From: Escherichia phage EC100
DNA: 64,000 bases
Reading direction: 5' to 3' (one strand)
Sequence record: NC_105587.1
Position 1 is the first letter of the stretch, and every line of letters starts with the position of its first letter. The position numbers and the translations under genes were made by a program. The notes under the pieces were generated by a model. That model was given only the letters and a program-made list of their open reading frames with translations, did no database searches and was not told the DNA's origin. Shown piece by piece: positions 38,600-39,547 of the stretch.

Positions 38600-39547
38600 T
38601 TATTTATTACGCATATCCATAATCATTTGGCCATCATAGCCAGTGCCAACCACAGTCTGCGGTACACCACCCTGATACTTCTGAGCACGAATCATTTCAA
38701 CTTCCAGTTGCTTCCAGCGAATCATCTCAGGAGTAATGGTACGTTGCAGTGCGGCGTTAGCTTCAGCTTCTTTCTTAGCTGCGTACAGTTTAGCATCTGC
38801 ATCACGTTCATTAGCAATAGCTTGGTTGTTGCGAGCTTCACGATCTGCTTCTGCTTGTTTAACTTTTTGCTGTGCTTCCTGTTCAACACGAGCTAATTCA
38901 GCTTTAGCAGCATTAACCTGTTCTTCACGAACTTTGGTATTCTGTACCTGTTCCATGATTACCGGTGGCAAAGTAATATCCTGAAGGAACACCTGCTTAA
39001 CTGTGTAACCATATGGGCGTGCATACTCTTCAACTTCCTGTTGAATTGCAGTTTGCAATTGAGCCTGAATTTTAGCATCAAACAAATCTTGTGCTTTAGG
39101 CACAGACTTACCAAACTCACGAATAGTAGACAATAATTTTTCAGTTACATATTTGTCTAACGCTTGATCCTGAGTACCTGCATTAATACGGTTAATCGGT
39201 GCCTTAGAACCATCAAATTGCAACATAACAGTCAAGTCAACAGTGGATTTAAACTTATCCTGACTAGGAACCTGAAGTTTATCTAATTTTACAGCAATAT
39301 CTTTTGTACTAAAAGTATCGAAAGATGCAAACGGGTTTACAAGATGGAAACCAGGTAATACTGGGTTAGGATCTACTTTACCCAGAAATGTTTGGGTTTT
39401 AACCGTACCATCAGAAACAATAGTATATGAATTAAAAGCTAGGATTAAACCTGCTAAACCAACTACAGCACCAATACCCCAACGTTTAATAGTACGAATT
39501 ACTTTCTGCTCAGAAGTCAGTTCTTTCATATTTTTAGTATTAAACAT
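38600..39547 (-). CDS. SPFH/band-7 (prohibitin/HflC-like) membrane protein
   Basis: 315 aa; N-terminal TM helix, 'PGFHLVNPF' SPFH core, Ala/Glu-rich coiled-coil tail. Confidence 0.65.
   Translation of the reverse strand: MFNTKNMKELTSEQKVIRTIKRWGIGAVVGLAGLILAFNSYTIVSDGTVKTQTFLGKVDPNPVLPGFHLVNPFASFDTFSTKDIAVKLDKLQVPSQDKFKSTVDLTVMLQFDGSKAPINRINAGTQDQALDKYVTEKLLSTIREFGKSVPKAQDLFDAKIQAQLQTAIQQEVEEYARPYGYTVKQVFLQDITLPPVIMEQVQNTKVREEQVNAAKAELARVEQEAQQKVKQAEADREARNNQAIANERDADAKLYAAKKEAEANAALQRTITPEMIRWKQLEVEMIRAQKYQGGVPQTVVGTGYDGQMIMDMRNK

What the first reader, a model, noticed from the sequence alone, without database searches (positions are those of the whole stretch)
38600..39547. Phage-encoded SPFH/band-7 (prohibitin/HflC-like) membrane protein
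N-terminal TM helix, an SPFH core (PGFHLVNPF...) and a long Ala/Glu/Gln-rich coiled coil are characteristic of HflK/C-type scaffolds that regulate FtsH. A phage copy could modulate host membrane proteolysis or organise membrane microdomains during infection. It lies directly opposite the low-complexity cassette.
Basis: partly seen in the sequence, partly recalled or inferred. Interest (0 to 1): 0.45.

Follow-up and report, generated by a model that had tools for sequence, protein, structure and literature searches.

The report
T5 phage SPFH membrane scaffold gene
This is the already-annotated T5.080 gene of a T5-like phage: a single-pass membrane protein with a real SPFH/band-7 fold that is strongly conserved and shared between unrelated lytic phages, is dispensable in the laboratory, is not a member of the HflK/HflC family, and has no demonstrated link to FtsH.

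Summary
Window 38600..39547 (-) is a 315-aa ORF with one N-terminal TM helix, a Pfam Band_7/SPFH domain (E 2e-17), a 76-residue Ala/Glu/Gln-rich helix and a conserved C-terminal tail. An AF2 model (pLDDT 78.7) matches the solved full-length SPFH proteins erlin, prohibitin, HflK/C, stomatin, QmcA and flotillin (Foldseek E 4e-15 to 5e-8).

The window is a T5-like phage (100% identical to phage EC122). The gene is T5.080 (99.4% aa identity) and many GenBank records already label it SPFH/Band 7.

- It is not HflK/C. NCBIfam gives no match. hhalign gives HflK 8% and HflC 69% over 42 columns, against QmcA 96% over 204 columns. It is a single gene with no paralog.
- An FtsH link is untested.
- The common database label "lipoprotein" is wrong, because the protein has no cysteine.

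It is near-universal in close T5 relatives and under strong purifying selection (dN/dS 0.009). It is 75-80% identical in T4-like and in 153-kb and 90-kb phage lineages. BF23 lacks it, and a T5 CRISPRi-ART screen scored it "Not Fit".

Most likely it is a portable, host-directed inner-membrane SPFH scaffold with a conditional role. Novelty: already known. Interest is low to moderate.

The parts
38600..39547 (-). CDS, 315 aa; ortholog of T5 gene T5.080 (YP_006908.1); SPFH/Band 7 single-pass membrane protein
   Evidence: ORF list. Pfam Band_7 E 2e-17. PHROG_200 E 1.7e-86. 99.4% aa identity to T5.080. dN/dS 0.009 against T5.
39553..39557 (-). Shine-Dalgarno-like AAGGA, 5 nt upstream of the ATG
   Evidence: Read directly from the 40 nt upstream of the start codon.
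39419..39481 (-). Codons for the single N-terminal transmembrane helix (about residues 23-43)
   Evidence: Best 19-residue hydropathy window starts at residue 25 with a score of 1.79. Residues 1-23 carry 6 K/R against 2 D/E, which predicts N-in/C-out. The bias recurs in the 22 homologs: N-flank net positive in all, exceeding the C-flank in 19. AF2 helix 12-38.
38873..39394 (-). SPFH/Band 7 domain (residues 52-225), including the PGFHLVNPF (65-73) and VPSQDKFK (93-100) motifs
   Evidence: Pfam PF01145 envelope. Invariant columns in alignment A1. Beta strands 41-111, helices 113-179 and strand 181-192 in the model.
38738..38965 (-). Long Ala/Glu/Gln-rich helix (residues 195-270), the equivalent of the CC1 wall helix of SPFH cages
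   Evidence: AF2 gives a single helix 195-270 with pLDDT 77-91. Composition is 26% A, 16% E, 10% Q. Full-length Foldseek alignments to erlin, PHB, HflK/C and QmcA cage subunits.
38603..38737 (-). C-terminal conserved tail (residues 271-315): helix 273-290 and short strands 299-302 and 308-311; family motif TITPEM..W..L...Y.G.VP.TV.G
   Evidence: Conservation in A1. Secondary structure; pLDDT is low (45-50) over residues 291-315.
38545..38576 (-). Rho-independent terminator hairpin (13-bp stem, 7 G-C pairs, T-rich tail) ending the SPFH transcript. The 3' arm of its stem carries a GCGC that corresponds in position to T5's annotated major nick site.
   Evidence: Terminator scan. Sequence read. 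T5 annotation of the nick site and the bidirectional terminator directly downstream of T5.080.
38496..38520 (.). Second G+C-rich hairpin (GCCCCTAAGT...ACTAGGGGC) between the convergent genes; probably the terminator for the plus-strand cassette, and the counterpart of T5's annotated bidirectional terminator
   Evidence: Read directly. Positional correspondence to the T5 annotation. Not reported by the scan, so this is an inference.
39582..39656 (-). tRNA-Arg(TCT) immediately upstream and co-oriented; probably on the same early transcript
   Evidence: ARAGORN. Rfam tRNA 49.3 bits. Same arrangement annotated in T5.
40306..40334 (-). Sigma-70-like promoter (TTGCTA-17-TATAAT, 10 of 12 matches) upstream of the RNAX/tRNA-like region, tRNA-Arg and the SPFH gene; corresponds to T5 promoter 'P 16-17'
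   Evidence: Promoter scan. T5 annotation of a promoter at the equivalent place. Co-transcription is inferred, not shown.

Best explanation
The gene encodes a single-pass inner-membrane protein of the SPFH superfamily. It belongs to a small, distinct subfamily shared by phages and a few bacterial lineages.

Shown here:
- The domain and the full-length SPFH architecture.
- Very strong purifying selection.
- Near-universal presence in close T5 relatives.
- 75-80% identity in unrelated lytic phage families, which makes it a horizontally mobile unit.
- No conserved partner gene.
- Dispensability for lytic growth under laboratory conditions.

Inferred mechanism:
- Like every full-length SPFH protein solved so far, it assembles through its long helix and C-terminal tail into a closed homo-oligomeric cage anchored by a ring of TM helices.
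- The positive-inside rule predicts that the N-terminus is cytoplasmic. The cage would then sit on the periplasmic face of the host inner membrane, the same side as HflK/C.
- The cage would fence off a patch of membrane and sequester or stabilise a conserved host inner-membrane client.
- That would tune envelope physiology (membrane-protein turnover, membrane integrity or lysis timing) during the early-to-late infection period.
- The benefit would be conditional on host or environment.

The client is unknown. FtsH is the leading single candidate by analogy only, at roughly 0.2-0.25.
For: Fold and architecture:
- Pfam Band_7 E 2e-17.
- AF2 model with pLDDT 78.7 shows TM, alpha/beta SPFH domain, 76-residue helix and C-terminal strands.
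- Foldseek full-length matches (260-324 columns) to erlin 4e-15, PHB 6.6e-13, HflK/C 5.6e-12, stomatin, QmcA 1.9e-10 and flotillin.

Topology:
- Residues 1-23 carry 6 K/R against 2 D/E. The bias recurs across the 22 homologs.

Constraint:
- dN/dS is 0.009 against T5 and 0.05 against a Klebsiella T4-like phage.

Distribution:
- 430 phage records carry it at >=90% identity, against 438 records with a >=90% A1 protein.
- 75-80% identity in 175-180-kb T4-like, 153-kb and 90-kb phage lineages, while the adjacent SleB genes share only 39-42%.
- Only 1,922 cluster representatives at E<=1e-3 among 1.84 billion.
- Chromosomal homologs in Morganella and Providencia sit as stand-alone genes in differing metabolic contexts.

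No partner:
- No second SPFH gene in the window.
- No NfeD-like gene.
- No neighbour family is shared by all lineages.

Envelope-flavoured neighbourhoods:
- rI antiholin in T4-likes.
- Secreted SleB-type hydrolase in the T5-like, 90-kb and 153-kb lineages, and TelA in the 153-kb lineage.

Dispensability:
- BF23 lacks the block.
- NG_S8 carries an internal deletion.
- T5.080 was 'Not Fit' in CRISPRi-ART, with 7 guides and P 0.85 (PMC11879866 supplement).
Against: - No oligomer was modelled, and no experiment on this protein exists in the searched literature.
- Topology rests on a simple charge count. That count separates HflK, HflC and QmcA only weakly in my own calibration.
- The C-terminal 25 residues have low model confidence.
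- The neighbourhood associations are partial and could reflect clustering of accessory genes rather than shared function.
- The CRISPRi-ART authors say guide consistency falls outside the T5 pre-early region, so 'Not Fit' is weak evidence on its own.
- Strong conservation with no laboratory phenotype fits many other conditional functions equally well.
Confidence: 0.55

Rival explanations
1. HflK/C mimic. The phage protein binds host FtsH as HflK/C does, caging it and changing degradation of FtsH substrates such as membrane proteins, LpxC and sigma-32 to favour infection.
For: - Same overall architecture as HflK/C (Foldseek 7vhq 5.6e-12, 7wi3 2.6e-10).
- Predicted N-in/C-out topology puts the SPFH domain on the same side as HflK/C and the FtsH periplasmic domain.
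- From established knowledge of these complexes, the exoplasm-facing SPFH cages HflK/C, prohibitin and erlin all partner with membrane-protein degradation machinery.
- Some GenBank records call the gene 'protease regulator', but that is an annotation transfer and not data.
Against: - No sequence-level affinity to HflK or HflC: NCBIfam gives nothing, and the PDB profile search misses HflK/C at E<=10 while finding QmcA and PHB.
- hhalign gives HflK 8% and HflC 69% over 42 columns only.
- It is a single gene, whereas HflK/C is an obligate heteromer.
- T5 and the other carriers are strictly lytic, so the classical Hfl phenotype (lambda CII and lysogeny) does not apply.
- No experimental link was found in the literature searched.
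Confidence: 0.22
2. Envelope protection, lysis timing or superinfection exclusion. The cage stabilises the energised inner membrane or controls access of periplasmic or envelope factors. This would prevent premature lysis or membrane damage, or exclude secondary phages, independently of FtsH.
For: - In T4-like carriers the gene follows the rI antiholin (PF24205) and DUF5856 genes.
- In the T5-like, 90-kb and 153-kb lineages a signal-peptide-bearing SleB-type cell-wall hydrolase lies within 0.4-1.5 kb.
- In the 153-kb lineage TelA (toxic anion resistance protein) lies two genes upstream of the SPFH gene, before an unassigned ORF and a PRTase gene.
- A conditional benefit would fit strong conservation with no laboratory fitness effect.
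Against: - The associations are partial. No neighbour is shared by all lineages.
- The SleB genes are far more diverged than the SPFH genes, at 39-42% against 75-77%, so they did not travel together recently.
- The tk-rI region of T4-like phages is a known hypervariable accessory region (my own knowledge), which weakens guilt by association.
Confidence: 0.25
3. Counter-defence. The protein neutralises a host abortive-infection or membrane-acting defence system that is absent from laboratory K-12 strains.
For: - The gene lies about 2 kb from T5.076/Rad, the reported anti-retron gene, next to the roughly 8-kb 'anti-defence island' rich in tRNAs.
- BF23 lost Rad, the cassette and the SPFH gene as one block.
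- The CRISPRi-ART authors note that anti-defence genes irrelevant to the screening strain score as not fit.
- The gene is horizontally mobile among unrelated lytic phages.
Against: - No match to any PADLOC defence-associated model.
- The anti-retron paper does not mention this gene.
- Chromosomal homologs in Morganella and Providencia sit in ordinary metabolic contexts, not defence islands.
Confidence: 0.12
4. Lipoprotein, as labelled by PHROG_200 and RefSeq (for example NC_005859 T5.080). The protein would be lipid-anchored through an N-terminal lipobox cysteine.
For: Only the database label.
Against: - The protein contains no cysteine at all.
- 19 of 22 homologs also have none, so no lipobox is possible.
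- The hydrophobic segment is preceded by 22 charged residues and is followed by the SPFH domain without a cleavage motif.
Confidence: 0.01

Closest known systems
T5 gene T5.080 (YP_006908.1) and its orthologs in Tequintavirus/Epseptimavirus phages; PHROG_200
   Same: Same gene: 99.4% aa identity to T5.080 and 100% to EC122 and other records. The genomic position is identical: promoter, RNAX, tRNA-Arg, gene, nick site and terminator. Many records already annotate it as 'SPFH domain / Band 7 family protein'.
   Different: Nothing of substance. The RefSeq and PHROG name 'lipoprotein' is not supported by the sequence (no cysteine).
E. coli QmcA (stomatin-type SPFH protein, PDB 8z5g, partnered with the NfeD protein YbbJ)
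   Same: Closest solved relative by sequence: phmmer 1.8e-6, profile 4.8e-7, hhalign 96% over 204 columns. Same length class, a single N-terminal TM helix and a homo-oligomeric cage.
   Different: No NfeD-type partner is detectable next to the phage gene, in the window or next to homologs. QmcA has no charged N-terminal segment and is known to face the cytoplasm (my own knowledge: Chiba et al. 2006). The phage protein is predicted to have the opposite orientation.
Prohibitins PHB1/PHB2 (PDB 8rrh, 9o9z) and erlins (9vvj, 9o9u)
   Same: Best structural matches: erlin 4e-15, PHB 6.6e-13. Sequence profile hits to PHB1/2 at 1e-4. Same predicted topology (N-in, bulk on the exoplasmic side). NCBI names some homologs 'prohibitin family protein' or 'PHB domain-containing protein'.
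   Different: Only 15-20% identity. Prohibitin and erlin cages are hetero-oligomers of two paralogs, whereas here there is one gene. The eukaryotic clients (m-AAA protease, ERAD ligases) have no direct counterpart other than FtsH.
E. coli HflK/HflC-FtsH complex (PDB 7vhp/7vhq, 7wi3, 9cz2)
   Same: SPFH fold, N-terminal TM helix, long wall helix and C-terminal cap (Foldseek 5.6e-12). Predicted periplasmic orientation.
   Different: No specific sequence relationship. A single gene instead of a tandem paralog pair. No evidence of FtsH binding.
Other viral SPFH proteins (N4-like Vibrio phages, Vi01-like phages, jumbo phages, Rhizobium and Streptomyces phages, giant viruses)
   Same: The same fold is widespread in viruses (BFVD hits from 2.7e-18 down to 4.3e-4). 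Papers from 2006 to 2026 note such genes and state that their role in phages is unknown (PMC1524935, PMC7760394, PMC13239085).
   Different: Most are different subfamilies with 14-22% identity. None has a demonstrated function, so they offer no mechanistic precedent.

Membership tests
SPFH / Band 7 superfamily (Pfam PF01145, clan CL0433) | Significant match to the Band_7 domain model above the curated threshold | tested here: met
   E 2e-17, 64.2 bits against a 23.6-bit cutoff, residues 52-225 covering profile positions 13-176 of 176.
SPFH / Band 7 superfamily (Pfam PF01145, clan CL0433) | Alpha/beta SPFH fold followed by a long helix and a C-terminal oligomerisation segment, as in solved full-length members | tested here: met
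   AF2 model pLDDT 78.7. Foldseek probability 1.00 and E 4e-15 to 5e-8 to erlin, PHB, HflK/C, stomatin, QmcA and flotillin over 260-324 columns.
SPFH / Band 7 superfamily (Pfam PF01145, clan CL0433) | Membrane anchorage through an N-terminal hydrophobic segment | tested here: met
   Single hydrophobic window at residues 25-43 (score 1.79), conserved in all 22 homologs. Membrane localisation itself was not tested.
SPFH / Band 7 superfamily (Pfam PF01145, clan CL0433) | Assembly into a large ring or cage oligomer | not testable with these tools
   Only monomer prediction is available. Inferred from the architecture shared with solved cages.
HflK/HflC (regulators of FtsH) | Match to the HflK or HflC equivalog models, or specific sequence similarity to HflK/HflC | tested here: not met
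   NCBIfam gives 0 families at E<=1. The PDB profile search finds no HflK/C at E<=10. hhalign gives HflK 8% and HflC 69% over 42 columns.
HflK/HflC (regulators of FtsH) | Two paralogous subunits encoded in tandem that form an alternating hetero-oligomer | tested here: not met
   One gene only. tblastn of the protein against the 64-kb window finds no second copy. The flanks are a tRNA and a terminator.
HflK/HflC (regulators of FtsH) | N-in/C-out topology with the SPFH domain in the periplasm | tested here: inconclusive
   The positive-inside count favours N-in, with 6 K/R against 2 D/E before the TM helix. The same simple count separates HflK/HflC from QmcA only weakly. No dedicated topology predictor or experiment was available.
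HflK/HflC (regulators of FtsH) | Physical association with FtsH and modulation of its substrates | not testable with these tools
   No experimental report was found.
Stomatin/QmcA-type SPFH-NfeD pairs | Sequence similarity to stomatin-type SPFH domains | tested here: met
   QmcA is the best PDB sequence hit (1.8e-6 and 4.8e-7) and hhalign gives 96% with E 3.3e-9.
Stomatin/QmcA-type SPFH-NfeD pairs | Adjacent NfeD-family partner gene | tested here: not met
   No YbbJ-like hit by tblastn or phmmer in the window or in 100+ homolog loci. Pfam scans of neighbours in Morganella, Providencia, methylotrophs and other phage lineages show no NfeD. Sensitivity is limited to single-sequence searches plus the neighbours scanned.
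Bacterial lipoproteins (the PHROG_200 / RefSeq label) | Signal peptide ending in a lipobox with an invariant cysteine | tested here: not met
   Zero cysteines in the protein. 19 of 22 homologs have none.
Known anti-phage defence-system components (PADLOC) | Match to a defence-system protein model | tested here: not met
   0 families at E<=0.01.

The most novel reading that the evidence does not exclude
The protein is a horizontally mobile 'plug-in' SPFH cage that unrelated virulent phages (T5-like, T4-like, and the 153-kb and 90-kb lineages) exchange because it acts on one conserved host inner-membrane target. It would either capture FtsH or membrane-protein quality control, or shield the membrane from abortive-infection effectors or premature holin or hydrolase action. 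That would make it the first viral SPFH protein with a defined client, and a natural tool to probe what SPFH cages do.
Probability: 0.15. Interest if true: 0.65.

Novelty: already known. Interest (0 to 1): 0.27.

Why it matters
The function of SPFH cages remains an open question even for E. coli's own four proteins. A phage version that is very strongly conserved (dN/dS about 0.01), is swapped between unrelated lytic phages at 75-80% identity, needs no partner gene and is dispensable in the laboratory would be a convenient minimal system for finding an SPFH client, if someone did the experiments.

For this scan the practical results are modest:
- The gene is real and the SPFH call is right.
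- It has been annotated in public records since the T5 genome papers.
- The specific HflK/C and FtsH reading is not supported by sequence tests.
- The widespread 'lipoprotein' label (PHROG_200, RefSeq) is wrong and should not be propagated.

Tried and rejected
- NCBIfam scan for HflK/HflC or other named families: no hit.
- PADLOC scan for defence-system relatives: no hit.
- Search for a second SPFH paralog in the window, which an HflK/C-like pair would need: none.
- Search for an NfeD partner by tblastn and phmmer with E. coli YbbJ against the window and all loci: none.
- Test of the low-complexity cassette as an obligate partner. T5.077 homologs occur in only 221 records, all but a few T5-like, against 724 for the SPFH gene. 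Rejected.
- Neighbour clustering across 17 representative phage loci. No family is shared by all lineages. The only cross-lineage neighbour is the SleB-type hydrolase, in 3 lineages and only 39-42% identical. Kept as a weak hint only.
- A roughly 443-aa ORF follows the gene in methylotroph genomes. It proved to be two different flavoproteins, NDH-2 and an Mqo-like enzyme, each confined to one lineage. It is not a family-wide partner.
- Chromosomal homologs in Morganella and Providencia were checked for prophage or defence-island context. Their neighbours are ordinary and differ between the two genera.
- The afdb50 fold library was not available.
- Literature searches for T5.080, SPFH with T5 or Tequintavirus, phage-encoded SPFH, and SPFH with anti-phage defence found no functional study.
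- The anti-retron paper's text gives no deletion coordinates, so I could not decide whether T5.080 lies inside its 8-kb 'anti-defence island'.
- The Rfam S15-leader hit at 40547..40636 scored 20.7 bits against a gathering score of 39.5. I regard it as chance.
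Full report
**1. What is in the sequence**

The minus strand of the window carries a 315-aa ORF at exactly 38600..39547, with an ATG start. An AAGGA Shine-Dalgarno sequence lies 5 nt upstream. A 13-bp G+C-rich hairpin with a T-rich tail (38576..38545) begins 24 nt after the stop.

The protein has these features:
- One hydrophobic segment at about residues 23-43, preceded by a charged N-terminus with 6 K/R and 2 D/E.
- A Pfam Band_7/SPFH domain at residues 52-225, with E 2e-17 and 64 bits against a 23.6-bit cutoff.
- The quoted motif PGFHLVNPF at residues 65-73.
- An Ala/Glu/Gln-rich stretch at residues 206-275, with 26% A, 16% E and 10% Q.
- A conserved C-terminal tail.

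**2. Whose gene it is**

The window is a T5-like phage. It is 100% identical to Escherichia phage EC122 at the same coordinates. It carries the T5 hallmark A1 DNA-transfer protein and 20 tRNA genes.

The ORF is the ortholog of T5 gene T5.080 (YP_006908.1) at 99.4% aa identity. In T5 the annotated order is promoter P16-17, stable RNA 'RNAX', tRNA-Arg, T5.080, a major nick site, then a bidirectional terminator. The genes T5.077-079 converge on it.

The window shows the same layout:
- A promoter-like TTGCTA-17-TATAAT at 40334..40306.
- A tRNA-like element at 40158..40229.
- tRNA-Arg at 39582..39656.
- The CDS, followed by two hairpins.

Public records already call the gene 'SPFH domain / Band 7 family protein', 'protease regulator', 'putative membrane protein' or 'lipoprotein'. 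The T5 annotation notes its similarity to Aeh1 ORF064c and 44RR ORF098c. A 2006 paper lists both of those as Pfam SPFH hits (PMC1524935).

**3. Fold**

An alignment of 22 diverse phage homologs (A1) gave an AlphaFold2 model with mean pLDDT 78.7. Its elements are:
- Helix 12-38, which includes the TM segment.
- Beta strands 41-111, helices 113-179 and strand 181-192, which together form the SPFH domain.
- One uninterrupted helix 195-270.
- Helix 273-290.
- Two short C-terminal strands with low confidence.

Foldseek against the PDB returns only SPFH-family cage subunits over nearly the full length:

| Match | E-value |
|---|---|
| Erlin1/2 | 4e-15 |
| Prohibitin | 6.6e-13 |
| HflK/C (7vhq) | 5.6e-12 |
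| Stomatin | 5.6e-12 |
| QmcA | 1.9e-10 |
| Flotillin | about 2e-8 to 5e-8 |
| Major vault protein | about 1e-6 |

The fold does not discriminate between subfamilies.

**4. Which subfamily**

Sequence tests do discriminate between subfamilies, and they do not point to HflK/C:
- NCBIfam gives no hit at E<=1.
- phmmer and a family profile against PDB sequences find QmcA (1.8e-6 and 4.8e-7) and prohibitins (about 1e-4). They do not find HflK or HflC even at E<=10.
- hhalign of A1 against the E. coli K-12 proteins gives HflK 8%, HflC 69% over 42 columns (TM plus first strand), and QmcA 96% with E 3.3e-9 over 204 columns.
- HflK/C needs two paralogs. The window has only one SPFH gene.
- The QmcA-type alternative also fails a defining feature, because no NfeD partner is detectable.
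- An exhaustive profile search found only 1,922 cluster representatives at E<=1e-3 among 1.84 billion.

This is therefore a small, distinct SPFH subfamily.

The 'lipoprotein' label (PHROG_200, RefSeq) is untenable. The protein has no cysteine, and neither do 19 of 22 homologs.

**5. Topology**

The positive-inside rule predicts a cytoplasmic N-terminus. Before the TM helix there are 6 K/R against 2 D/E. In the 15 residues after it there are 2 K/R against 1 D/E. The N-flank is net positive in all 22 homologs and exceeds the C-flank in 19. That would put the SPFH domain in the periplasm, as in HflK/C, and opposite to QmcA. The orientations of those host proteins are from my own knowledge (Chiba et al. 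2006).

My calibration on HflK, HflC and QmcA shows that the simple count is only weakly discriminating. I treat this as a prediction, not a result.

**6. Distribution, selection and dispensability**

Distribution:
- tblastn finds the protein in 724 phage records.
- 430 records carry it at >=90% identity (T5-like). 438 records carry a >=90% A1 protein. It is therefore near-universal in close T5 relatives.
- It is 74-80% identical in 175-180-kb T4-like phages of Klebsiella, Enterobacter, Cronobacter and E. coli RB43.
- It is about 60% identical in Aeromonas T4-like phages and about 35% in N4-like Vibrio phages.
- It is 75-77% identical in the 153-kb and 90-kb lineages.

These phage families share no comparable similarity in their core genes, so the gene has moved horizontally.

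Selection:
- dN/dS is 0.009 against T5 at dS 0.30.
- There are no amino-acid changes against VAH1 at dS 0.21.
- dN/dS is 0.05 against a Klebsiella T4-like phage.

Dispensability:
- BF23 lacks the whole block from the Toprim gene T5.076 through RNAX (also PMC12752171).
- NG_S8 carries an internally deleted remnant.
- In the T5 CRISPRi-ART screen, T5.080 scored 'Not Fit', with 7 guides, mean -4.28 and P 0.85 (PMC11879866 supplement).
- The authors caution that guide consistency falls outside the pre-early region, and that anti-defence genes irrelevant to the screening strain also score as not fit.

**7. Context and partners**

The convergent low-complexity cassette is not an obligate partner. 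The T5.077 homolog occurs in only 221 records, all but a few of them T5-like. Its position opposite the SPFH gene is real but has no wider support.

The other flank of the cassette, the Toprim gene (window 36063..36632, T5.076), is the reported anti-retron gene rad. The SPFH gene therefore sits at the edge of T5's accessory and counter-defence region.

Clustering of neighbours across 17 representative loci found no universally shared partner. The local gene orders are:

| Lineage | Gene order |
|---|---|
| T4-like | tk ... rI antiholin (PF24205), DUF5856, SPFH, NUDIX/NMNAT |
| 153-kb | TelA, unassigned ORF, PRTase, SPFH, small ORF, SleB hydrolase |
| 90-kb | RtcB, AAA ATPase, SPFH, small ORF, cREC_REC, SleB |
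| T5-like | cREC_REC, SleB, two ORFs, RNAX, tRNA-Arg, SPFH |

The recurring neighbours are envelope-directed: an antiholin, a secreted cell-wall hydrolase and TelA. However, the SleB genes are only 39-42% identical across lineages, while the SPFH genes are 75-77% identical. This is a weak hint.

Chromosomal homologs exist in two groups:
- Morganella and Providencia have homologs at 57-59% identity. They are stand-alone genes in differing metabolic neighbourhoods.
- Methylotroph MAGs have homologs at 33-41% identity. There an NDH-2 or an Mqo-like flavoprotein follows the gene, each confined to one lineage.

**8. How it most likely works**

Shown:
- It is an SPFH membrane protein.
- It is strongly constrained.
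- It is mobile between phages.
- It has no partner gene.
- It is non-essential in the laboratory.

Inferred:
- It forms a homo-oligomeric cage on the periplasmic face of the host inner membrane.
- It acts on a conserved host component. I infer this because it is retained at 75-80% identity in phages that share nothing else.

All solved exoplasm-facing SPFH cages (HflK/C, prohibitin, erlin) work with membrane-protein degradation machinery. That statement rests on my own knowledge of those complexes. It makes FtsH the leading single candidate client, at about 0.2-0.25, but nothing here tests it.

Envelope stabilisation, lysis timing or superinfection exclusion (about 0.25) and counter-defence (about 0.12) are comparably viable.

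The classical Hfl role in lambda lysogeny does not apply to these strictly lytic phages.

**9. Literature**

Full-text searches found no functional study of this or any other phage SPFH protein. Authors from 2006 to 2026 repeatedly say that the role in phages is unknown.

**10. Verdict**

- Observation: confirmed.
- Interpretation: partly supported. The SPFH membrane protein call is right, HflK/C membership is not supported, and the FtsH link is untested.
- Novelty: already known as an annotated feature with unknown function.
- Interest: low to moderate. The strong conservation, cross-family mobility and laboratory dispensability make it a reasonable candidate for follow-up, but finding an SPFH gene in a large lytic phage is not surprising (BFVD hits).

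Noticed in passing
window 36788..37840 (+): The T5.077 homolog is 350 aa. It has an acidic run (DDEDDEDDDDE), a Gly-rich hydrophobic stretch (GGFGGFGGFGGRG, glycine-zipper-like), a long Q/N/S/T-rich region and a CCCE motif. It has no Pfam match and belongs to PHROG_8119 (unknown function). It occurs in 221 phage records, all but a few of them T5-like, and was 'Not Fit' in CRISPRi-ART. It could be a membrane-active protein.
   Followed up: partly
window 37862..38275 (+) and 38285..38479 (+): The T5.078 homolog is 137 aa and extremely Gln-rich (MQQQ repeats; PHROG_7894, unknown function). The T5.079 homolog is 64 aa and Cys-rich (CC..C..CC motifs). Neither has a Pfam match. BF23 lacks both, along with the SPFH gene.
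   Followed up: partly
window 36063..36632 (-): This Toprim-only protein (Pfam Toprim_2; PHROG label 'DNA primase') is the T5.076 homolog. The CRISPRi-ART re-annotation and bioRxiv 10.1101/2023.03.15.532788 identify it as Rad, an anti-retron protein. The 'DNA primase' label in RefSeq is therefore probably misleading.
   Followed up: partly
window 40158..40229 (-): A tRNA-like element (Rfam RF00005, 35.5 bits against a 29-bit gathering score) that ARAGORN did not call. It lies inside the region that T5 annotates as the 719-nt stable 'RNAX' of unknown function. EC122 annotates it as 'tRNA-OTHER'.
   Followed up: no
window 41016..41483 (-) and 41471..41788 (-): A signal-peptide-bearing SleB-type cell-wall hydrolase (Pfam Hydrolase_2, 2.4e-25) overlaps by 13 nt a cREC_REC (cyclic-phosphate processing receiver) domain protein. 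The same cREC_REC plus SleB pair lies next to the SPFH gene in a 90-kb phage lineage (L100), which also has RtcB nearby. This is not T5's main endolysin, so its role early in infection is unclear.
   Followed up: partly
window 38545..38576 (terminator hairpin), GCGC at about 38552..38555: The 3' arm of the terminator hairpin's stem downstream of the SPFH gene contains GCGC. By position this corresponds to T5's annotated 'major DNA single-chain interruption' (consensus Pu-pGCGC). One of the T5 nicks would then fall inside a terminator hairpin.
   Followed up: no
L067 (Escherichia phage Bf23 OR083247.1, record positions 36210..36569) and L071 (phage NG_S8, locus 4750..5129): These are natural losses. 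BF23 lacks the whole block T5.076-T5.080 plus tRNA-Arg and RNAX, with hegA abutting the T5.081 homolog. NG_S8 has two small ORFs (66 and 55 aa) in place of the SPFH gene, and these retain its C-terminal 42 residues.
   Followed up: yes
L021, L022, L025-L028, L031, L033 and L032, L035, L048, L049 (methylotroph MAGs): In Methylococcaceae loci the SPFH homolog is followed directly by a type-II NADH dehydrogenase (Pyr_redox_2, 444 aa). In Methylophagaceae-type loci it is followed by an Mqo/DAO-like flavoprotein (442 aa). Both are membrane-associated quinone reductases from different families. This recalls the reported link between HflK/C and respiration (PMC12005517), but it may only reflect lineage synteny.
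   Followed up: partly
L098 1341..3961 (153-kb phage lineage): TelA (toxic anion resistance protein), an unassigned ORF and a ComF-like PRTase lie immediately upstream of the SPFH homolog. TelA and this PRTase are components of the Ter-type stress-response gene sets, according to my own knowledge.
   Followed up: no
L006 (NZ_JBHSCL010000010.1, 'Flagellimonas marina', 178-kb contig); also P0028, P0053 and P0062: Several 174-178-kb contigs labelled as bacterial chromosome or plasmid (Flagellimonas marina, Enterobacter asburiae, a Klebsiella pneumoniae 'plasmid') carry the T4-like-phage version of the gene at 73-78% identity. By size and content they look like complete T4-like phage genomes mislabelled in bacterial assemblies.
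   Followed up: no
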